The translations under genes and the position numbers were made by a program. From contig VMFR01000001.1 of assembly GCA_007376135.1 (NCBI GenBank), positions 77,290 to 141,289 on the forward strand: 64,000 bases of DNA. Reading direction: 5' to 3'. The first letter of the stretch is position 1. The number at the start of each line of letters is the position of its first letter. This DNA comes from Parcubacteria group bacterium Gr01-1014_31. GTDB lineage: Bacteria > Patescibacteriota > Patescibacteriia > Buchananbacterales > GWA2-38-13. Shown here one piece after another: positions 7,133 through 48,655 of this stretch. A model generated the notes under the pieces. That model saw only the letters and a program-made list of their open reading frames with translations, made no database searches and was not told the DNA's origin.

Positions 7133-7247
7133 GATTGTAGTTGGGTAGGAATGTAGTAAGGGCGGGGTGCCTCAATCGAGAAGCAAGTATCTAGTATGGG
7201 CGGGGCGAGGCACCCCGCTCACTGTAATAAACTAGAATAGGGTAAAT

Positions 7248-7817
7248 ATGTGGAAAGCAATAATTTCGATATTACTTCTACCTCTGCCGACCTATGCACA
7301 ATTGTTCAACGACCCGGGTCCAGAATATGTAAATGAATTGGACGCATGGATGGACGCGAGTCATCGTCTCGACACATGGTTATCACGAATTGACATGGTC
7401 GCGCTAGTTTTACTGTGTTCCGTTTTAGGAATTTATTTAGCTTCGTTATTCGCCTGGCTACGTCAGCGTCGTCAATCACAGAGGATGATCGGAGTCGCCC
7501 CGCTCATAATGGGTCTGCCAGTTCTACCACTTATCGCACTGATCATCTGGCTCAATTTTGTCCACGATAGGATTTATTCCATAGCTTGGTCGCGATTCTG
7601 GTTTGCCCAGATAGTCGTTGGGTTTCCCCTCATGCTGATTACTATCAGCGTCATTCTGCGTCGACTTATACTTAGGGGCAAGAGCACGCGCGCGAGTGGC
7701 GTGTCTTATATCGCACTGATTGGACAGATCATTTTAGTAGTTTCTTTCTCCATTGTAATTGTCTTTGTAGAGAAGACCCTCGACCCAGGGCCATATCCTT
7801 ACTGGCCAAATCGCTAG
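7248..7817 (+). CDS. hypothetical integral membrane protein (low-GC)
   Basis: Signal-peptide-like N-terminus plus about 4 TM helices. GC clearly lower (~45%) than surrounding genes. Confidence 0.45.
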   Translation: MWKAIISILLLPLPTYAQLFNDPGPEYVNELDAWMDASHRLDTWLSRIDMVALVLLCSVLGIYLASLFAWLRQRRQSQRMIGVAPLIMGLPVLPLIALIIWLNFVHDRIYSIAWSRFWFAQIVVGFPLMLITISVILRRLILRGKSTRASGVSYIALIGQIILVVSFSIVIVFVEKTLDPGPYPYWPNR

Positions 7818-14794: not shown

Positions 14795-14944
14795 TTGTTC
14801 AGTATAGCGCAGTGCGCGGCGGCGGCAAGGTGCTGACGGTTGCCCGGACGGGGGATATCTGGTACGCTTGACGATTGGCGGCGGGGCAGCATTGGGCTGC
14901 TCCGGCCAAGGTTCCTTGACAGCTCCAGAACGGAGGTCAGATCC

Positions 14945-16705
14945 ATGCTCACGCGAGCGTTGGTTCTAGCGGGCATTGTGGCGGTCGGCGGTACGGTGGC
15001 GGCACAGGATGGCATCATTTCCACGGTGGCCGGCACCCGAACGCCAGGCCATGCCGGCGACGGCGGCCAGGCGGTGAACGCCCAGTTCGAGCTGCCCGTC
15101 GGGGTGGCGGTCGCTGCGGACGGTACGCGGTATGTCGCCGACGCTCAAGCGTCGGTCATCCGCAAGATCGACCCCAGCGGGGTCATCACCACCATCGCGG
15201 GCACGCCCGGCGAGTTCGGCTTCTCCGGCGACGACGGTCCGGCGATTGGTGCGTTCATTTCAGCGCCGTTGGGCATCGCGGTCGACGCCAGCGGCAACGT
15301 GTACTTCTCCGACGCCGGGAACCGGCGGGTGCGGAGGATCGCCGCCGCAGACGGCAGCATTACGACCGTTGCGGGCAACGGGGACAGCGGGTACTCGAAC
15401 GTTTCGGGTGTTGCGTTGGAGCTTTCCATCGATTACCCCGCGGGCCTGGCAGTCGGTCCGCAAGGGTACGTGTACATCGCCGCTCCGAACAATGGGATGG
15501 TGTACTACCTCATCCCGGAGCTGGGAGCTCTGGATACGGTCGCTGGCGATTTCGAGCAGCACGGCGCATCCAGCGGCGACGGCGGCCAGGCCAGGTCGGC
15601 CGGGCTGCATTTGCCCTGCGGGGTCGCGGTGGCGTCCGACGCCACGGTGTACATCGCCGAACAAGGCGCGCACCGCATCCGCAAGGTTGCCCTCGATGGG
15701 ACCATCACCACGCTGGCGGGCACCGGTACGGCCGGATACAGCGGCGACGGCGGCCTGGCGACGACCGCGCAGCTCTCGTTCGACGTCGAATACCCCTCCC
15801 AGCTCGCCATTGATGATACGGGCGCGCTGCTCATCGCCGACAGCGGCAACTCCGCCGTTCGGCGTATCGACGCCAGTGCTTGCATCGAAACCTATGCCGG
15901 CACCGGGGTCGGCGGCTTTTCCGGCGACGGCCAATGGGCCTTCGAGGGGCAGTTGATGCTGCCGTATGCCGTTGCCAGCGGAACCAACGGCGACCTGGTG
16001 GTTGCCGACAGTTTCAACTACGCGCTGCGCAAGGTCAGCCGTAACTTCAGCACCCAGACCGGGAGCAACGTGACCGTCGACCTCGGTAGCGAGGCCTCGC
16101 TGACCTTCGAACAGGTCACCAGCAGCGGCGACGTTTCCATCGATGTCGTGGACACGGTACCCACACCCGCGCCCGGCTACGTTGAGGTCAACGGCAAATA
16201 CTACGACATCAACGTTACCGGCGGTTTCACCGGCGCGGTTACGCTCGCCATCGGCTACGACGACGCCGGGCTGTCGGTCGGCCAAGAGCGCCAGCTCAAG
16301 TTGCTGCACTTCGTCAGCGACCAGTGGGTGGACGTTACCACCGACGTGCGCGTTGACGTGAACTTCATTGACGGCCAGGTGACCAGCTTTTCGCCGGTCG
16401 TGCTGGTGCTGCCCAGCGAAGGCAAGCCGCTGGTCAATTTCCGGCGGGGCGATGCCAACGACGACGGCGCATACGATGTTTCCGACGCCGTTTCGGCGCT
16501 GCTCTACCTGTTTGCCGGCCGCACGTCATCGTGTCTGGACGCGCTCGATGCCAACGACGACGGGAGCGTCGACATCAGCGATCCGGTGGCGGTCCTCGAC
16601 TGGCTGTTCCTCGGCGGCAAGAACCTGCCCCCTCCCGGCCCGGATGATACCGGGCTCGACCAGACCGACGACGGTACCAACTGCGACGCGTATCAGTCGC
16701 GCTGA
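14945..16705 (+). CDS. secreted NHL-repeat beta-propeller protein with C-terminal dockerin-like Ca-binding pair
   Basis: SD GGAGGT sits 8 nt upstream of ATG 14945. Signal peptide 'MLTRALVLAGIVAVGGTVAAQ'. Repeated 'GDGGxA..A.L..P.GVAV...G..Y.AD..N..IRKI' NHL units. C-terminus 'GDANDDGAYDVSDAVSALLYLF...DANDDGSVDISDPVAVLDWLF' is dockerin-like. Confidence 0.7.
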   Translation: MLTRALVLAGIVAVGGTVAAQDGIISTVAGTRTPGHAGDGGQAVNAQFELPVGVAVAADGTRYVADAQASVIRKIDPSGVITTIAGTPGEFGFSGDDGPAIGAFISAPLGIAVDASGNVYFSDAGNRRVRRIAAADGSITTVAGNGDSGYSNVSGVALELSIDYPAGLAVGPQGYVYIAAPNNGMVYYLIPELGALDTVAGDFEQHGASSGDGGQARSAGLHLPCGVAVASDATVYIAEQGAHRIRKVALDGTITTLAGTGTAGYSGDGGLATTAQLSFDVEYPSQLAIDDTGALLIADSGNSAVRRIDASACIETYAGTGVGGFSGDGQWAFEGQLMLPYAVASGTNGDLVVADSFNYALRKVSRNFSTQTGSNVTVDLGSEASLTFEQVTSSGDVSIDVVDTVPTPAPGYVEVNGKYYDINVTGGFTGAVTLAIGYDDAGLSVGQERQLKLLHFVSDQWVDVTTDVRVDVNFIDGQVTSFSPVVLVLPSEGKPLVNFRRGDANDDGAYDVSDAVSALLYLFAGRTSSCLDALDANDDGSVDISDPVAVLDWLFLGGKNLPPPGPDDTGLDQTDDGTNCDAYQSR

Positions 16706-16740
16706 CCATGCACCTTGGGTTCCGGCGCGTTCGCGCCAAC

Positions 16741-16768
16741 GGGGGAGATCGATCACCCCCGTTTTTTT
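16741..16768 (+). terminator. intrinsic terminator after NHL gene
   Basis: ggggg-agatcgatca-ccccc followed by gttttttt. Confidence 0.7.
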
Positions 16769-16779
16769 ATACCCCACCA

Positions 16780-16808
16780 TTGCCAGACCGCGATTTTCCT
16801 GCTATCTT
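16780..16808 (+). promoter_or_regulatory. sigma70-like promoter for the tRNA locus
   Basis: TTGCCA (16780-16785), 17-nt spacer, TATCTT (16803-16808). Predicted TSS falls a few nt before the tRNA-like 5' fragment at 16818. Confidence 0.5.
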
Positions 16809-16817
16809 CAATGCCAT

Positions 16818-16876
16818 GCCGCCTTCGTCGAGAGGCCTAGTCTCGTTACGGGAGATCTCCCGTAGGGAGAGACGCC
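16818..16876 (+). other. tRNA-Glu-like 5' fragment (acceptor 5' strand plus D-arm) carrying a 30-nt palindromic insertion
   Basis: 'GCCGCCTTCGTCGAGAGGCCTAG' matches 20/23 positions of the adjacent tRNA-Glu (positions 1-23). Homology resumes at 'GACGCC' (16871) after a 30-nt insert (16841-16870) containing TCTCCCgtaGGGAGA. No anticodon arm or 3' half follows. Confidence 0.6.
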
Positions 16877-16899
16877 ACTAGTTTCCCACCCAAATTTTT

Positions 16900-16972
16900 G
16901 CCGGGTTCGTCTAGAGGCCTAGGACGCTGCCCTCTCACGGCGGAAACACGGGTTCGAATCCCGTACCCGGTA
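16900..16972 (+). tRNA. tRNA-Glu (anticodon CTC)
   Basis: Manual cloverleaf: acceptor GCCGGGT/ACCCGGT with G1-U72; D-stem GTCT/GGAC; anticodon stem CTGCC/GGCGG, loop CTCTCAC; T-arm ACGGG-TTCGAAT-CCCGT; discriminator A. CCA not encoded. Confidence 0.9.
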
Positions 16973-17012
16973 GAAATTTGAGCGGGAGGCAGTAAACCAA
17001 CGCTATACCGTT

Positions 17013-17081
17013 ACGGCGGAAACACGGGTTCTCACCCTTCGAGTGATCTCCCGTAGGGAGAGAATCCCCTAGGCGGTACCA
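17013..17081 (+). other. tRNA-Glu-like 3' fragment (anticodon 3' stem to CCA) carrying a 30-nt palindromic insertion in the T-loop
   Basis: 'ACGGCGGAAACACGGGTTC' is identical 19/19 to tRNA-Glu positions 37-55. A 30-nt insert (17032-17061) is followed by 'GAATCCCCTAGGCGGTACCA'. The 3' acceptor AGGCGGT is exactly complementary to the 5' fragment acceptor GCCGCCT, with compensatory changes at 5/68 and 6/67. No 5' half precedes it. Confidence 0.6.
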
Positions 17082-17101
17082 CCCGATCTACTCCTAAGGA
17101 A

Positions 17102-17131
17102 AACGTCGGTTGACGGACGTTTTCTTTTTTT
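17102..17131 (+). terminator. intrinsic terminator closing the tRNA transcription unit
   Basis: aacgtc-ggttgacg-gacgtt followed by ttctttttttat. Confidence 0.7.
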
Positions 17132-17156
17132 ATCCGGAACTGCATAATGTACGGGT

Positions 17157-17717
17157 ATGTCGCCATTCACGATCGTGCTTCTCACGTTGGTGCTGGTAGT
17201 GATGCTGTTTATCCTGGTGTTTGCCGCCGTTCTCCTGACGCCGTTCGCCCTGCCGCTGCTGGCGTTCGGCGCGCCGTTCATTCCCAGCGCAGGGAAGACG
17301 GTGGAACGGATGTTGGACGCCGCCGGTGTCGGTCCAACGACGCGGTTGCTCGACCTCGGGTCAGGCGACGGGCGCATTCCGGTGGCGGCGGCAAAACGCG
17401 GCGCGCGGGCCGACGGCGTCGAGGTCAATCCGTGGCTGGTGTGGGTTTCCCGCCGGCGGGCGCAGTGGTTTGGCGTGCGCGAGCACACCATGTTCAAGTG
17501 CGGCAACCTGTGGACGTACGACGTTGCGGCCTACGACGTGGTGACCGTGTATGGCCTGGGCCCGATCATGGGGAAGCTGGAACAGAAACTGTTGCGCGAA
17601 CTGAAGCCCGGGACCCGCGTGGTGTCGCACGCCTTCCATTTCCCGAACTGGCGGCCCGAGCGCGAGGACCGTGGCGTGGTGCTCTACGTGGTGCCTGAGC
17701 GTTCCGCGGCTGCGTGA
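17157..17717 (+). CDS. membrane-anchored class I SAM-dependent methyltransferase
   Basis: N-terminal TM helices, then MTase motif I 'LLDLGSGDGRIPVAAAKRGA' and 'GVEVNP'. Confidence 0.65.
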   Translation: MSPFTIVLLTLVLVVMLFILVFAAVLLTPFALPLLAFGAPFIPSAGKTVERMLDAAGVGPTTRLLDLGSGDGRIPVAAAKRGARADGVEVNPWLVWVSRRRAQWFGVREHTMFKCGNLWTYDVAAYDVVTVYGLGPIMGKLEQKLLRELKPGTRVVSHAFHFPNWRPEREDRGVVLYVVPERSAAA

Positions 17718-17718
17718 T

Positions 17719-18834
17719 ATGGCCTGGCGATTGCCTTTGCGCCGGTTGCGCTACTATGATCTGCTGCTCCTGAGTGCGGTGGTGGTGCTGTGCGCGTTCA
17801 GCCTGGCGGCGTTGTACGGGATCGCAACCGGTTTTGAGACCCCGGATTTCGGCAACCTTCGCAAGCAGGTGCTCTTCATCGCCTTGGGCATGCTCGCGCT
17901 GGTCGCGGTGTCCACGGTCAACACCCAGTGGCTCAAACAGTACGCGGTTGCGGGCTACGCCTTGAGCGCATTGCTCCTGGTTGCTGTGCTGGTGTTCGGT
18001 CAGACGCGGAGCGGTACGACCGGCTGGTTCACGCTCGGTCCGATCGGGTTCCAACCGGTCGAGGTGGCGAAGTTCGCGTTGATCATCCTTCAGGCGCGCC
18101 TCTTGTCCGCGCGGCCCAGCGGGGGCGGGTTGCCGTGGCGGCTGCTGGCCGAGAGCGGTGGGATCACGGCGCTGTACTGCGGCTTGACCCTGCTGCAGCC
18201 GGACTTCGGTTCCGCGATGCTGCTGCTGGTGATATGGCTGGGTATGGTGTTCTTTGCCGGCGTCACCGCGCGGCAGGTGCTGGCGATGGCGGCGGTGGTC
18301 GGGGTCTTGGGGGCGGGCTGGTGGACCTTGTTTTCGCAGGAATATCAGCATGCCCGCATTATCACCTTCTTGAACCCGGCGGCCGACCCCTACGGGCGCG
18401 GCTACCAGGTGCGGCAATCCATCATTGCCGTCGGTGCCGGCCAGCTGCTCGGCCGCGGTCTGGGATCGGGCTCGCAAAGCCAGCTGAAGTTCATCCCCGC
18501 ATCGCAGACGGACTTCATTTTCGCGGTCATTGCCGAGGAGTTGGGGTTGCTGGGCGCCGGGGTAGTCCTGGCGGCGTACCTGGTACTGCTGCTGCGTTTA
18601 GCGGCGCTGGCGCGCCGGGCGGCCGATGATTTTGCCGCTGCGCTGGTGCACGGCATCGCGGTGCTGCTGTTCGTCCATATCGTCATCAACGTCGGGATGA
18701 ACCTGGGGCTCCTGCCCGTGACCGGCATCCCGTTGCCGTTGCTGAGCTACGGCGGCAGCTACCTGGTCATCACCTTGACGCTCCTGGGGGTCGCGCAGAG
18801 CGTCGCGATTTCCAGCGTCAAATATCGTGCCTGA
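17719..18834 (+). CDS. SEDS-family peptidoglycan glycosyltransferase (RodA/FtsW)
   Basis: Ten-TM SEDS protein with 'GYQVRQSIIAVGAGQLLGRGLGSGSQSQLKFIPASQTDFIFAVIAEELG'. ATG at 17719 lies just after the upstream stop. Confidence 0.85.
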   Translation: MAWRLPLRRLRYYDLLLLSAVVVLCAFSLAALYGIATGFETPDFGNLRKQVLFIALGMLALVAVSTVNTQWLKQYAVAGYALSALLLVAVLVFGQTRSGTTGWFTLGPIGFQPVEVAKFALIILQARLLSARPSGGGLPWRLLAESGGITALYCGLTLLQPDFGSAMLLLVIWLGMVFFAGVTARQVLAMAAVVGVLGAGWWTLFSQEYQHARIITFLNPAADPYGRGYQVRQSIIAVGAGQLLGRGLGSGSQSQLKFIPASQTDFIFAVIAEELGLLGAGVVLAAYLVLLLRLAALARRAADDFAAALVHGIAVLLFVHIVINVGMNLGLLPVTGIPLPLLSYGGSYLVITLTLLGVAQSVAISSVKYRA

Positions 18835-46730: not shown

Positions 46731-48655
46731 GATTCCGTGCAGGCCATGATCCGTTCCGGGTGTCCGGCAGCGACCACCCCCAGCGCATCCGCCGCTCAAC
46801 GCTTCCCGACGATTTTTCAGAGGCCGGGCCAGCGGGAGCCGGGTACCTGGGCGCATCGCTGCCGTTGGGGCGCATCCATGCCTGGATCGTTATTTTTACA
46901 ACAGTGATCGCGGTGTTCGCCGTCCGTGCCGCGTATCTTCAGGTCATTGAGGGACAACGCTACCGCCAACTGGCGGACGGCAATCGCATCCGGATCCTGA
47001 CCATCCCAGCTCAGCGAGGCATGCTTGCCGACCGATTCGGGCAGCCGCTCGTTTCCCATACGCCCAACCTTCGGGTTCAGGTGGTCCCGGTTGACCTGCC
47101 GAAAGCCGGCGCGGGCCGAGAGCTCCTGGTCGTTGAGCTTGCCCAATTGACGGGTGCAATGCCGGAGGACATGCGGCAGACCTTGGCAGGGTTGGACGAA
47201 CTTTCGTATGAGCCGGTGGTTATCCGTGAGAACTTGTCGCATGATCAGGCCATTGCGCTGGCGTTGCTTTCCAGTCGCACGCCGGCCGTGAAGTTGGATG
47301 TGGCATCGCGCCGGCAGTATTTGAACGAAAAGATCCAGAGCCTCTCGCACGTGCTGGGTTATCTGGGAAAGATCGGTCCGGGAGAAACGACCGAAGCGCG
47401 CGCCCGCGGCTATGAGCTGTCGGATAGTTTGGGAAAGGCGGGGTTAGAGCAGGCGCTGGAAGACGCGCTGCGCGGCCGTAAGGGACGCGAGCAGATTGAG
47501 GTCGATGCCCGGGGCCAACGCAAGGAGGTCATCAACTACGAGCCTCCAACTGCGGGAACCGACATCGTACTCACCATTGACGCGGGGGCGCAGCAGGTGC
47601 TGGAAGACGCGCTGCGGCGTGCGTTGGCGGTCCATCCGCCTGGCCAAGGAGTAGGTATTGCGTTGGATCCGCGTAACGGCGAAATATTGGCGCTCGTAAG
47701 CCTGCCGACGTTCGATAATAATTGGTTTGCCCGCGGTATCCTGCCGTCGGAATTTTCCAGTCTGGCCGACGATCCGCAACGTCCGTTGTTCAATCGCGCG
47801 ATCCAGGGGGCGTATCCGCCGGGCTCTACGATCAAACCGGTGATCGCCGCCGCGGCACTGCAGGAGAACGTCGTGACGGAACGCACCACCGTTTACAGCA
47901 GCGGTGGCATACGCGTCAATCAATGGTTCTTTCCGGACTGGAAGGCCGGCGGTCACGGCGCGACCAACATGACCTCGGCGTTGGCGGAATCGGTGAACAC
48001 CTATTTCTACTATGTCGGCGGCGGTTACGATTCGTTCAATGGGCTGGGGGTTACCCGGCTGCATCAGTATCTCACCGGCGCGGGATTTGGAAAACCATTG
48101 AACGTTGAGCTGTGGGGGGAGGCATCGGGCCTCGTGCCGACGCCCGCCTGGAAGGAACAGGTTATCGGCCAGCCGTGGTACATCGGTGATACCTACCATC
48201 TATCCATCGGCCAGGGCGACCTGTTGGCAACGCCGATCCAGGTGGCCGCCGCAACGGCAATGATCGCCAACGGCGGCACGCTGTATCGGCCCCACCTCGT
48301 TCGTGAACGCAAACCGGCGGGTGCTCCGCTGGGGTCCCGTCAGCAACCCGTCGCACTGGCGAGTAACATTTTTTTACCCGAGCATCTTGCCGTCGTTCGG
48401 CGCGGTCTGCGGCAGGCGGTGAAGACCGGCAGCGCGCGCGCGCTCAATATGGCCTCCCTGCCGGTAGCCGGGAAAACGGGGACCGCGCAATGGTCCAGTA
48501 CCCGTCCTAACCACGCCTGGTTCACCGGGTATGCGCCGGCCGACGACCCGCAGATTGTGGTCACCATCCTGGTGGAGGAAGGGGGAGAGGGGAGTGCGAC
48601 TGCTGTGCCGGTTGCCAATGAGTTTCTGTCGTGGTGGTCAGTTGAGCGGCAGTAG
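46726..48655 (+). CDS. mrdA: penicillin-binding protein 2 (class B transpeptidase)
   Basis: ATGA overlap with mreD. 'YLQVIEGQRYRQLADGNRIRILTIPAQRGMLADRFGQPL' (PBP dimerisation domain), 'GSTIKP' (SxxK) and 'KTGTAQ' (KTG) motifs. Confidence 0.85.

What the first reader, a model, noticed from the sequence alone, without database searches (positions are those of the whole stretch)
16780..17131. Intact tRNA-Glu(CUC) nested between the 5' and 3' halves of a second tRNA-Glu-like gene
One promoter-to-terminator unit (TTGCCA-N17-TATCTT at 16780; terminator at 17102) contains three pieces. (i) A 5' tRNA fragment at 16818-16876 covers the acceptor 5' strand and D-arm. (ii) A complete tRNA-Glu(CUC) lies at 16900-16972. 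(iii) A 3' tRNA fragment at 17013-17081 covers the anticodon 3' stem, variable loop, T-arm and acceptor 3' strand, and encodes CCA. The two fragments are not tRNAs on their own. Their acceptor strands, GCCGCCU and AGGCGGU, are perfectly complementary to each other. They differ from the intact gene (GCCGGGU/ACCCGGU) by compensatory changes at pairs 5-68 and 6-67, and keep the same G1-U72 wobble. The fragments therefore belong to one molecule, historically or functionally. The only feature missing from that composite molecule is its own anticodon 5' stem and loop (positions 27-36); that position is occupied by a 136-nt segment containing the intact tRNA-Glu, flanked by AAATTT direct repeats. Possibilities are a tRNA gene disrupted by nested insertion of a replacement copy, a discontinuous or intron-containing tRNA with non-canonical insertions, or an unusual processing substrate. 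None of these is routine in bacteria.
Basis: seen in the sequence. Interest (0 to 1): 0.8.

Follow-up and report, generated by a model that had tools for sequence, protein, structure and literature searches.

The report
Working tRNA nested in dead tRNA
A working tRNA-Glu gene sits inside the broken remains of an older tRNA-Glu gene and uses its promoter and terminator; the same nested layout turned up for at least five other tRNA types among ~130 loci from related uncultured (CPR) bacteria, and I found no description of it.

Summary
An intact tRNA-Glu(CUC) at 16900-16972 lies between the 5' and 3' parts of a second tRNA-Glu gene, in one promoter-to-terminator unit.

The outer gene is best read as a fossil, not a split or intron-containing tRNA.
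- With three insertions removed in silico, it aligns gap-free with ordinary tRNA-Glu genes, but its anticodon arm is scrambled and ARAGORN no longer calls it.
- The insertions are a 122-nt cassette (leader, tRNA, complementary trailer) and two exact 30-nt twin-hairpin elements, in the D stem and the T loop.
- A near-identical strain (L203) has the nest but lacks the T-loop hairpin.
- The next relative (L201) has one plain tRNA-Glu behind the same promoter.
- Two distant relatives (L205, L211) also carry nests at this locus.

Elsewhere in CPR metagenomes I found nests for Ile (three layers, each with its own matching acceptor strands), Pro, Ser, Leu and Val. Other loci have small GIY-YIG nuclease genes between a tRNA fragment and an intact tRNA.

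So acceptor complementarity records history, not present function. How the cassette inserts is unknown. I found no published description of these nests or of the twin-hairpin element.

The parts
16780..16808 (+). Sigma-70-like promoter (TTGCCA-N17-TATCTT) of the original (outer) tRNA-Glu gene. It now drives the whole nest.
   Evidence: The same promoter sits in front of the plain tRNA-Glu in L201 and of the nests in L203/L204. L205 has TTGCCA...TAGACT.
16818..16840 (+). Outer relic, piece B1: acceptor 5' strand GCCGCCT, D stem 5' strand and D loop (tRNA positions 1-22).
   Evidence: 88% identical to the start of the inner gene (D3). Collinear in alignment A1.
16841..16870 (+). TH1: 30-nt twin-hairpin element (TCTCGTTACGGGAGA + TCTCCCGTAGGGAGA) inserted precisely in the D-stem 3' strand of the relic, with no target duplication.
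   Evidence: L203/L204 have a cleaner copy at the same place. It belongs to a family with >120 metagenome hits.
16871..16876 (+). Outer relic, piece B1': GACGCC (end of the D stem, position 26, start of the anticodon stem). ACGC is repeated at 17000-17003.
   Evidence: In register in alignment A1; sequence.
16877..16899 (+). Leader of the inserted cassette (ACTAGTTTCCCACCCAAATTTTT). It pairs with the trailer.
   Evidence: Inverted repeat I2; MFE fold; duplex -17.9 kcal/mol.
16900..16972 (+). Inner, intact tRNA-Glu(CUC). Acceptor GCCGGGT/ACCCGGT, discriminator A, no encoded CCA. This is the functional gene.
   Evidence: ARAGORN; Rfam RF00005 at 56.9 bits against a 29-bit threshold; 73/73 identical in L203/L204.
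16973..16999 (+). Trailer of the inserted cassette (GAAATTTGAGCGGGAGGCAGTAAACCA).
17000..17031 (+). Outer relic, piece B2: positions 24-56. It holds a scrambled anticodon stem 5' strand and loop (CTATA CCGTTAC), an intact 3' strand GGCGG, the variable loop AAAC, and the T stem 5' strand plus TTC.
   Evidence: D2, 81%; alignment A1, where only columns 29-36 deviate.
17032..17061 (+). TH2: second 30-nt twin-hairpin element (TCACCCTTCGAGTGA + TCTCCCGTAGGGAGA), inserted precisely between TTC and GAAT of the relic's T loop. A recent insertion.
   Evidence: Absent from L203/L204, whose T loop is intact (AGGGGTTCGGATCTCCT) although FtsW is 100% identical.
17062..17081 (+). Outer relic, piece B3: rest of the T loop, T stem 3' strand CCCCT, acceptor 3' strand AGGCGGT, discriminator A, encoded CCA.
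   Evidence: D4, 82%. The same 20-mer ends the nest in L211.
17096..17134 (+). Intrinsic terminator of the unit (12-pair stem followed by a T run).
   Evidence: conserved in L201 and L203.

Best explanation
The locus is one transcription unit that makes one working tRNA, the inner tRNA-Glu(CUC). That gene arrived as a 122-nt cassette (leader, tRNA, complementary trailer) inserted into the D-stem/anticodon-stem junction of the resident tRNA-Glu gene, with ACGC duplicated at the junctions. The insertion killed the resident gene but took over its promoter and terminator.

Inferred steps:
- The primary transcript starts a few bases before 16818 and ends at the terminator.
- The leader-trailer helix lets the inner tRNA fold on its own despite the homologous outer pieces.
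- RNase P and a 3' nuclease release it, and CCA is added enzymatically because the gene does not encode it.

The outer halves are a decaying fossil. Their complementary acceptor strands are inherited from the once-functional allele. The relic's anticodon arm is scrambled. Because it is no longer constrained, it has picked up two copies of a small mobile 30-nt twin-hairpin element that prefers tRNA loop-like sites.

The inner allele looks foreign: its acceptor GCCGGGT differs from the GCCGCC-type found in every related genome at this locus. This matches a wider CPR pattern in which tRNA genes are serially replaced by insertion of a new allele inside the old one. The enzyme that inserts the cassette is unknown. 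In some other loci a small GIY-YIG nuclease gene sits in the nest, but none is present here.
For: Shown here:
1. With TH1, TH2 and the cassette removed, the outer gene aligns without gaps over 76 columns with five tRNA-Glu(CUC) genes. Only columns 29-36 are scrambled.
2. That reconstructed gene is not called a tRNA at default settings, and nothing in Rfam matches the fragments even at E<=10.
3. L201 (FtsW 94.6% identical) has a single plain tRNA-Glu(CUC) with CCA between the same promoter and terminator.
4. L203/L204 (FtsW 100% identical; two independent assemblies) carry the nest without TH2.
5. Window versus L203, read from the sequences: the inner gene has 0/73 differences and the outer pieces 6/75.
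6. L205/L206 and L211 (FtsW ~60%) carry nests at the same locus with different inner tRNA bodies and other hairpin insertions. The 5' outer half is unrecognisable in L205.
7. The same architecture occurs for other tRNAs:
   - L172, tRNA-Ile: three layers with acceptors GGGCGTA/TACGCTC, GGGCGTG/CACGCCC and GGGCATG/CATGCCC.
   - L161 (Pro), L190 (Ser), L104 (Leu), L148 (Val).
8. Strong leader-trailer pairing is found almost only for nested inner tRNAs.
9. All eight twin hairpins seen in tRNA contexts lie in relic copies: two in the window, plus L089, L104, L112, L143, L148 and L190.
10. GIY-YIG ORFs lie between a 5' tRNA fragment and an intact tRNA in L146, L089 and L077.
Against: - The outer 3' 20-mer GAATCCCCTAGGCGGTACCA is identical in the window and in L211, although the hosts share only ~62% FtsW identity. 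A similar end persists in L205. That is more conservation than a neutral fossil should show.
- It could still reflect independent insertions into a conserved resident gene, or gene conversion from a paralogue. I could test neither.
- The outer acceptor still pairs 7/7 in every clear nest. My way of recognising nests favours such cases.
- No insertion enzyme is identified and no second copy of the cassette was found, so 'mobile cassette' is an inference from architecture.
- No RNA data were available.
Confidence: 0.7

Rival explanations
1. The outer halves are a functional two-piece tRNA-like RNA. After RNase P and 3' processing cut out the inner tRNA, the 5' and 3' outer pieces stay annealed through the 7-bp acceptor stem and the TH1:TH2 helix. 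They would present a CCA end, for example as a minihelix substrate, a decoy for tRNA-targeting nucleases, or a regulator.
For: - 7/7 acceptor pairing and an encoded CCA.
- The whole unit folds into one long nested structure: -120 kcal/mol, z = -4.8.
- The outer 3' end is conserved in L211 and L205.
- The only acceptor substitution in L203 (C3 to T) preserves pairing as G-U.
Against: - L201 does without it.
- TH2, and therefore the TH1:TH2 helix, is absent from a strain with identical FtsW.
- In the window the T stem has a C-C mismatch plus a 30-nt insertion.
- L205 has no recognisable 5' half.
- The outer pieces diverge faster than the inner gene (6/75 against 0/73 differences, read).
- Fossil layers in L172 keep paired acceptors without any plausible function for three concentric molecules.
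Confidence: 0.1
2. Purely local origin. The nest arose by partial duplications or rearrangement of the resident gene (replication slippage, unequal crossing-over or break repair) followed by divergence, with no imported cassette and no mobile element.
For: - In L093 the 3' side is a near-perfect 65-nt tandem repeat, so local duplication or conversion does happen in these nests.
- The window's inner and outer copies share an identical 17-mer, GGCGGAAACACGGGTTC.
- Short junction repeats (ACGC, CTG, CTGG) are also what microhomology-mediated repair leaves behind.
Against: - Inner and outer differ by two fully compensated acceptor pairs. The inner type GCCGGGT is not seen in any relative's gene at this locus.
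- The sister lineages L205 and L211 carry very different inner tRNA bodies, while the L211 inner nearly equals the L201 gene. Gene and host trees therefore disagree.
- Each layer in L172 has its own co-varying acceptor and T stems and its own leader-trailer pair.
- A simple duplication gives a 5' or a 3' fragment, not both.
Confidence: 0.13
3. The outer gene is an intron-containing tRNA. The 122-133-nt segment with the inner tRNA is removed and the outer exons are ligated into a second functional tRNA.
For: - Patescibacteria do carry many tRNA introns (group I, PMC13011429).
- Several nests are inserted in or beside the anticodon loop.
Against: - There is no group I or other ribozyme signature.
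- ARAGORN intron mode is negative.
- The joined exons have no anticodon stem and a CCGTTAC loop without U33, and are not called a tRNA.
- Two further 30-nt insertions in the D stem and T loop would also have to be removed.
Confidence: 0.03
4. Assembly artefact: strain variants of one tRNA gene were mis-joined in a metagenome assembly.
For: The window comes from a MAG, and tRNA genes are short repeats.
Against: The same nest is present in independent assemblies from other samples and with other assemblers: L203 and L204. L205 and L206 likewise agree with each other.
Confidence: 0.02

Closest known systems
tRNA gene fragments left by integrating elements (attL/attR; Williams 2002; reviewed in PMC9897764)
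   Same: A mobile DNA inserts inside a tRNA gene, at the anticodon-loop, T-loop or 3'-end sublocations. It brings sequence that restores a working tRNA and leaves a partial, non-functional copy.
   Different: There, a kilobase-scale element with an integrase separates one complete copy from one 3' fragment that is a near-exact direct repeat. Here the insert is 122 nt with no gene. It carries a whole tRNA, leaves both a 5' and a 3' fragment around it, and the alleles differ by compensated changes.
Free-standing GIY-YIG homing endonuclease SegB in phage tRNA clusters (PMC2330249, PMC13096335)
   Same: A nuclease that recognises the T-psi-C DNA of tRNA genes drives replacement or amplification of neighbouring tRNA genes. 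Small GIY-YIG ORFs lie inside some CPR tRNA nests (L077, L089, L146).
   Different: No nuclease gene lies in or next to the window's nest. SegB systems are phage-borne and do not produce a tRNA nested within its own homologue. Cleavage specificity was not tested here.
Group I introns in Patescibacteria tRNA genes, including position 35/36 (PMC13011429)
   Same: Same phylum. Insertions interrupt tRNA genes in or near the anticodon loop and escape standard annotation.
   Different: Those are self-splicing ribozymes that restore the host tRNA. Here there is no ribozyme, the interrupted gene is not restored, and the insert itself supplies the tRNA.
Split and permuted tRNA genes (Nanoarchaeum, Cyanidioschyzon)
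   Same: The 5' and 3' tRNA halves are separated in the DNA, with complementary acceptor strands and GC-rich helices in the intervening sequence.
   Different: Those halves are joined by a bulge-helix-bulge endonuclease and a ligase into a decoding tRNA. Here the halves lack a usable anticodon arm, bacteria are not known to have that machinery, and a close relative lacks the arrangement.
REP/BIME elements and IS200/IS605-derived palindromic mini-elements (for the 30-nt twin hairpin)
   Same: Short dispersed palindromic units with stem covariation. They insert without target duplication next to a short preferred sequence.
   Different: This is a fixed 30-nt pair of 6-bp hairpins (loops TTCG-like and GTA) found in CPR bacteria. 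No partner transposase was identified, and there is no Rfam family or literature match.

Membership tests
Canonical tRNA (Rfam RF00005): inner gene | Covariance-model score above the gathering threshold, and a cloverleaf with a 7-nt anticodon loop | tested here: met
   56.9 bits against 29. ARAGORN calls tRNA-Glu(CUC).
Canonical tRNA (Rfam RF00005): outer gene | Recognisable as a tRNA, either as it stands or after removing the insertions | tested here: not met
   No partial tRNA hit on the fragments even at E<=10. The in-silico spliced sequence is not called at ARAGORN defaults, and relaxed settings give nonsense anticodons.
Group I intron-containing tRNA | A group I ribozyme core in the intervening sequence | tested here: not met
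   No Intron_gpI hit in the window at the gathering threshold, nor at E<=10 in 16700-17200. Only ~50 nt of non-tRNA sequence is available.
Split / BHB-intron tRNA | Exons that join into a valid decoding tRNA | tested here: not met
   (no anticodon stem, no U33). ARAGORN intron mode with introns up to 300 nt finds nothing.
Split / BHB-intron tRNA | A bulge-helix-bulge motif and a splicing endonuclease in the genome | not tested
   Only 64 kb of the genome is available, and no BHB scan was run.
Integrase att-site tRNA duplication | An integrase-bearing element between a complete tRNA and a 3' partial direct repeat | tested here: not met
   The insert is 122 nt with no ORF of its own (the only listed ORFs reaching 16877-16999, 16452-16865 and 17069-17506(-), run in from outside and were not annotated). 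Fragments lie on both sides and differ from the complete copy.
Homing-endonuclease-associated tRNA replacement (SegB-like) | A GIY-YIG or other homing endonuclease gene adjacent to the tRNA | tested here: not met
   No such ORF lies in or next to the nest. The neighbours are an NHL-repeat protein and a methyltransferase. A GIY-YIG motif scan of the whole window found nothing (a crude regex). The feature is met in other nests, L077, L089 and L146.
Homing-endonuclease-associated tRNA replacement (SegB-like) | Co-conversion of flanking markers around the insertion | tested here: inconclusive
   Window versus L203 is ~98-100% identical except for 17005-17744 (82-87%). That patch starts at the right edge of the cassette. 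This is compatible with break-initiated recombination, but the donor and the direction are unknown.
Two-piece tmRNA | A tRNA-like domain plus a tag reading frame | tested here: not met
   ARAGORN tmRNA search is negative.
REP/BIME or IS200/IS605-derived mini-element (twin hairpin) | Dispersed palindromic copies with conserved stems | tested here: met
The neighbouring hairpin is conserved. Stem covariation among 112 distinct copies: C-G 56, T-A 49, T-G 6, C-A 1.
REP/BIME or IS200/IS605-derived mini-element (twin hairpin) | A partner Y1/HUH transposase (RAYT or TnpA) | not tested
   The only hint is a weak Y1_Tnp fragment in L207. No co-occurrence analysis was possible.

The most novel reading that the evidence does not exclude
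Leader-tRNA-trailer cassettes may be a previously undescribed class of tiny, gene-less mobile units in CPR bacteria. Under this reading they insert into the central region of the cognate tRNA gene, supply their own replacement tRNA, use the victim's promoter, and spread between lineages. That would produce 'matryoshka' tRNA genes whose fossil layers record successive takeovers. Some takeovers may be driven by small GIY-YIG nucleases, and the fossils are then colonised by a 30-nt twin-hairpin element.
Probability: 0.35. Interest if true: 0.8.

Novelty: new variant of a known kind. Interest (0 to 1): 0.62.

Why it matters
tRNA genes are among the most conserved and least mobile-looking genes in a genome. 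Here the single-copy tRNA genes of tiny CPR genomes appear to be replaced repeatedly from within, leaving concentric fossils.

If that is general, three things follow:
1. tRNA genes in these bacteria are exchanged horizontally far more than assumed. This matters for using them as integration-site or phylogenetic markers.
2. Standard annotation misses the relic layers. Relaxed settings can miscall them: relaxed ARAGORN gives nonsense anticodons for the spliced relic.
3. There must be an insertion mechanism that targets tRNA gene interiors and tolerates or creates leader-trailer stems. Together with the twin-hairpin element and the GIY-YIG-tRNA units, this points to a set of tRNA-directed mobile DNA in a phylum that cannot yet be studied in culture.

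For this window specifically, the practical conclusion is simple: one functional tRNA-Glu(CUC), one pseudogene and two small repeat insertions.

Tried and rejected
- Rfam at the gathering threshold over the window, and at E<=10 over 16700-17200: only the inner tRNA. The weak P31, Tymo_tRNA-like and L20-leader hits are noise.
- BLAST of the locus against phage genomes: only ordinary tRNA-Glu similarity to the inner gene.
- Genome scan with FtsW: 80 CPR loci at <=50% identity, none syntenic for the tRNA. It served only to identify the phylum and gave one stray twin hairpin, L032.
- Exact look-up of the methyltransferase failed at first. It was found through the homology search.
- More distant methyltransferase contexts have no tRNA at this position or start too late: L207, L208, L210, L212, L213.
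- Viral contig scans for the twin hairpin and the cassette junction: nothing. One degenerate-pattern hit (L214) is a chance match inside a coding region.
- ARAGORN intron and tmRNA modes: nothing new. At relaxed thresholds only a spurious reverse-strand 'tRNA-Pyl' appears.
- Integron attC reading of the leader-trailer stem: the R-box consensus is not present, by eye; dropped.
- TH1:TH2 pairing as a functional helix: dropped, because TH2 is absent in L203.
- ARAGORN's second 'tRNA-Arg(CCG)' in the window: judged a false positive.
- Literature searches for nested tRNA-in-tRNA, for the hairpin sequence, and for GIY-YIG plus tRNA in CPR: no description found.
Full report
**What is in the sequence**

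The window comes from a high-GC Patescibacteria (CPR) genome. The adjacent methyltransferase is 100% identical to a protein of 'Parcubacteria group bacterium Gr01-1014_31', and the best FtsW matches are Uhrbacteria-like MAGs.

Between an NHL-repeat/dockerin-like gene and a methyltransferase-ftsW pair lies one promoter-like site (16780-16808) and one terminator-like hairpin (17096-17127). Inside this unit, ARAGORN and Rfam find one tRNA, tRNA-Glu(CUC) at 16900-16972, scoring 56.9 bits.

Repeat analysis shows that the flanks are copies of parts of that gene: 16817-16840, 17000-17031 and 17062-17078, at 81-88% identity. The outer acceptor strands GCCGCCT and AGGCGGT pair 7/7 and are followed by ACCA.

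**Refined anatomy**

Two exact copies of a 19-nt core (GATCTCCCGTAGGGAGAGA) occur in the window, both here, against 0.02 expected by chance. Each is the second half of a 30-nt twin hairpin:
- TH1, 16841-16870: TCTCGTTACGGGAGA + TCTCCCGTAGGGAGA.
- TH2, 17032-17061: TCACCCTTCGAGTGA + TCTCCCGTAGGGAGA.

When TH1, TH2 and the segment 16877-16999 are removed, the outer pieces join into a 76-nt sequence. It aligns without a single gap to five full-length tRNA-Glu(CUC) genes (alignment A1). Only columns 29-36 deviate, covering the anticodon stem 5' strand and the loop.

So the outer gene is a complete tRNA-Glu gene carrying three insertions:
- TH1 in the D-stem 3' strand, precise, with no target duplication.
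- TH2 between TTC and GAAT of the T loop, precise, with no target duplication.
- A 122-nt cassette at the D-stem/anticodon-stem junction, with ACGC present on both sides (16872-16875 and 17000-17003).

The cassette consists of a leader (ACTAGTTTCCCACCCAAATTTTT), the intact tRNA, and a trailer (GAAATTTGAGCGGGAGGCAGTAAACCA). Leader and trailer form a 26-nt imperfect inverted repeat.

**Is the outer gene a tRNA of any kind?**

No, on four counts:
- The fragments give no partial tRNA hit even at E<=10.
- No intron or ribozyme family matches.
- ARAGORN finds nothing further with introns up to 300 nt, or in tmRNA mode.
- The in-silico spliced outer gene is not called at default thresholds. Its 'anticodon arm' is CTATA/CCGTTAC/GGCGG, which is unpaired and lacks U33.

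**Orthologous loci**

Homologues of the adjacent methyltransferase led to syntenic contigs. FtsW identities give the host relationships: window = L203 (100%), L201 94.6%, L210 76.8%, L205 59% and L211 61.7%; L205 and L211 are 82% identical to each other.

- **L201** has, behind the same promoter and before the same terminator, a single plain tRNA-Glu(CUC), GCCGCCA...TGGCGGTACCA.
- **L203 and L204** are two independent assemblies. They have the same nest, with an identical inner gene (73/73) and a cleaner TH1, but no TH2. The outer T arm is intact (AGGGG TTCGGAT CTCCT). TH2 is therefore a recent insertion. The outer pieces differ at 6 of 75 positions between the window and L203, against 0 of 73 for the inner gene (my count from the sequences).
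- **L205/L206 and L211** also have an inner tRNA-Glu(CUC) without CCA. It is followed by GGCGG, a lineage-specific hairpin insertion, and an outer 3' end with CCA. In L211 that end is GAATCCCCTAGGCGGTACCA, identical to the window. In L205 it is CAAATCCCCCTGGGCGGCGCCA. L205 has no recognisable outer 5' half.
- **L207, L208 and L210** have no tRNA at this position.

The inner tRNA bodies do not follow the host tree. The sisters L205 and L211 carry very different inner genes, while the L211 inner gene is nearly identical to the L201 gene. The window's inner acceptor, GCCGGGT, is unlike the GCCGCC-type seen in all the others, including its own relic.

Finally, window and L203 are ~98-100% identical in DNA except for a patch at 17005-17744 (82-87%). 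That patch begins at the right edge of the cassette and covers the methyltransferase gene. It looks like a recombination tract anchored at the nest.

**The twin hairpin is a widespread element**

Almost every hit has the same neighbouring hairpin. The consensus is ttG TCTCCC-TTCG-GGAGA TCCCCC-GTA-GGGGGA gaaatt.

The search pattern allowed all four combinations at one stem pair. Among 112 distinct copies these were C-G 56, T-A 49, T-G 6 and C-A 1. Typical flanks are (A/T)TT(G/T/C) on the left and (G/C)AA(A/T) on the right.

There is no Rfam family and no literature match. Several copies sit in tRNA loops, and every one of those tRNAs is a relic:
- T loops in L104, L143, L148 and L112.
- Anticodon loops in L089 and in the outermost fragment of L190.

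I read the element as a small mobile unit that likes tRNA-loop-like sites and survives only where the tRNA is already dead. That is an inference.

**Nesting is a general pattern**

This found:
- **L172, tRNA-Ile(GAU):** a three-layer nest. Each layer has its own complementary acceptor (GGGCGTA/TACGCTC, GGGCGTG/CACGCCC, GGGCATG/CATGCCC). The two inner layers each have a distinct T stem and a complementary leader-trailer pair. In the related contig L093, the middle layer's 3' part has been homogenised with the inner gene.
- **L161, tRNA-Pro:** outer CGGGGCG/CGCCCCG-A-CCA with intact D and T arms.
- **L190, tRNA-Ser:** at least two layers.
- **L104, tRNA-Leu:** outer GCCGGAG/CTCCGGC.
- **L148, tRNA-Val:** outer GGACGCG/CGCGTCC.

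Strong leader-trailer pairing (below -13 kcal/mol) is found almost only around nested inner tRNAs. The sequences differ from case to case (for example CCCGCCAAAAATTTT/AAAATTTAGGCGGG and AAAAGTTTCTT/AAGAAACTTTT), but the pairing is kept.

A second class has an 81-87-aa GIY-YIG ORF (Pfam E ~1e-15) between a 5' tRNA fragment and the intact tRNA. It occurs in L146 (Lys), L089 (Glu-UUC) and L077 (Ala, from the unbiased FtsW set). The window has no such ORF.

**Interpretation**

The best explanation is that the inner gene is the only functional tRNA. It entered as a cassette that disrupted the resident gene and uses its promoter and terminator. The outer halves are a fossil.

Their acceptor complementarity, which motivated the finding, is a historical signature. 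L172 shows fossils keeping co-varying stems layer after layer.

Processing by RNase P, a 3' nuclease and the CCA-adding enzyme is inferred from general tRNA biology. So is a role for the leader-trailer helix in insulating the inner fold from its homologous surroundings.

L201 is most simply a collapse or allelic replacement of the nest, since its tRNA body resembles the L211 inner gene, not the window's relic. An independent-insertion history cannot be excluded.

What does not fit a neutral fossil is the identity of the outer 3' 20-mer between the window and L211. Independent insertions into a conserved resident gene, gene conversion from a paralogue, or a residual function could each explain it.

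**Comparison with known systems**

The closest known cases are:
- tRNA fragments at integrase att sites (PMC9897764).
- SegB-type GIY-YIG homing at tRNA genes (PMC2330249, PMC13096335).
- Group I introns in Patescibacteria tRNAs (PMC13011429).
- Split or permuted tRNAs.

The window's locus fails the defining tests for each. It has no integrase or kb-scale element, no nuclease gene, no ribozyme, and no valid spliced product. It resembles the first two only in logic: an insertion into a tRNA gene that brings its own replacement.

Searches of the held literature found no description of tRNA-in-tRNA nests or of the twin hairpin.

**Verdict**

The exotic readings (a split or intron-containing tRNA) are not supported. 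The 'disrupted gene with a nested replacement copy' reading is supported, and it extends into a recurrent CPR phenomenon that appears undescribed. The insertion mechanism remains open.

Noticed in passing
window 16841-16870 and 17032-17061; L081-L200 (e.g. L094:9124-9142, L189, L163); L032:1047-1076: There is a 30-nt twin-hairpin element with consensus TCTCCC-TTCG-GGAGA + TCCCCC-GTA-GGGGGA. It usually lies in AT-rich intergenic DNA flanked by gaaatt(g)-like words. It inserts without target duplication, and in either orientation, into tRNA loop sequences. It has no Rfam family and I found no literature match.
   Followed up: partly
L146 (tRNA-Lys), L089 (tRNA-Glu UUC), L077 (tRNA-Ala): Small GIY-YIG ORFs (81-87 aa; Pfam PF01541, E ~1e-15) sit between a 5' fragment of a tRNA and an intact copy of the same tRNA. 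L077 also has an exact 29-nt duplicate of the tRNA's 3' end (tRNA positions 45-73, followed by an A that completes CCA) 46 nt downstream. They look like homing-endonuclease units that carry or regenerate a tRNA.
   Followed up: partly
L172 (reverse strand, around oriented positions 7190-7640) and L093: This is a three-layer 'matryoshka' tRNA-Ile(GAU). Every layer has its own matching acceptor, and the two inner layers each have a distinct T stem and a complementary leader-trailer pair. In L093 the middle layer's 3' part plus trailer is a near-perfect 65-nt tandem repeat of the inner one, from conversion or duplication.
   Followed up: partly
window 17005-17744 versus L203: A sharply bounded divergent patch (82-87% identity) sits in otherwise ~98-100% identical DNA. 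It starts at the right edge of the tRNA cassette and spans the whole methyltransferase gene. The methyltransferase is 85.6% identical in protein while the adjacent FtsW is 100% identical.
   Followed up: partly
window 14840-16705 versus L201: The NHL-repeat/dockerin-like gene upstream of the tRNA locus is present in the window, L203 and L205 but missing from L201. L201 also has the un-nested tRNA.
   Followed up: no
window 48138-48220 (-): ARAGORN calls an 83-nt tRNA-Arg(CCG) here. Rfam does not, and the sequence looks like ordinary coding DNA by eye (not checked against the ORF list). It is probably a false positive.
   Followed up: partly
L037, reverse strand (tRNA at 7528-7603): A non-nested tRNA (called Leu-UAA, type I shape, CCA encoded) has a strong leader-trailer stem, CCCGGATCAAAT / ACATGATCCGGG (-21 kcal/mol). 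Such stems therefore also exist outside nests and may mark cassette-type tRNA genes before or without nesting.
   Followed up: no
L071 6259-6363: tRNA-Arg(GCG) is followed after 13 nt by an exact duplicate of its last 19 nt. The duplicate starts inside the T loop (TT|CGATTCC), the same sublocation where twin hairpins insert.
   Followed up: no
window 16738-16763: The terminator hairpin of the upstream gene (AACGGGGGAGATC/GATCACCCCCGTT) contains GGGAGATC and GATCACCC words that resemble half-sites of the twin hairpin. This may be coincidence.
   Followed up: no
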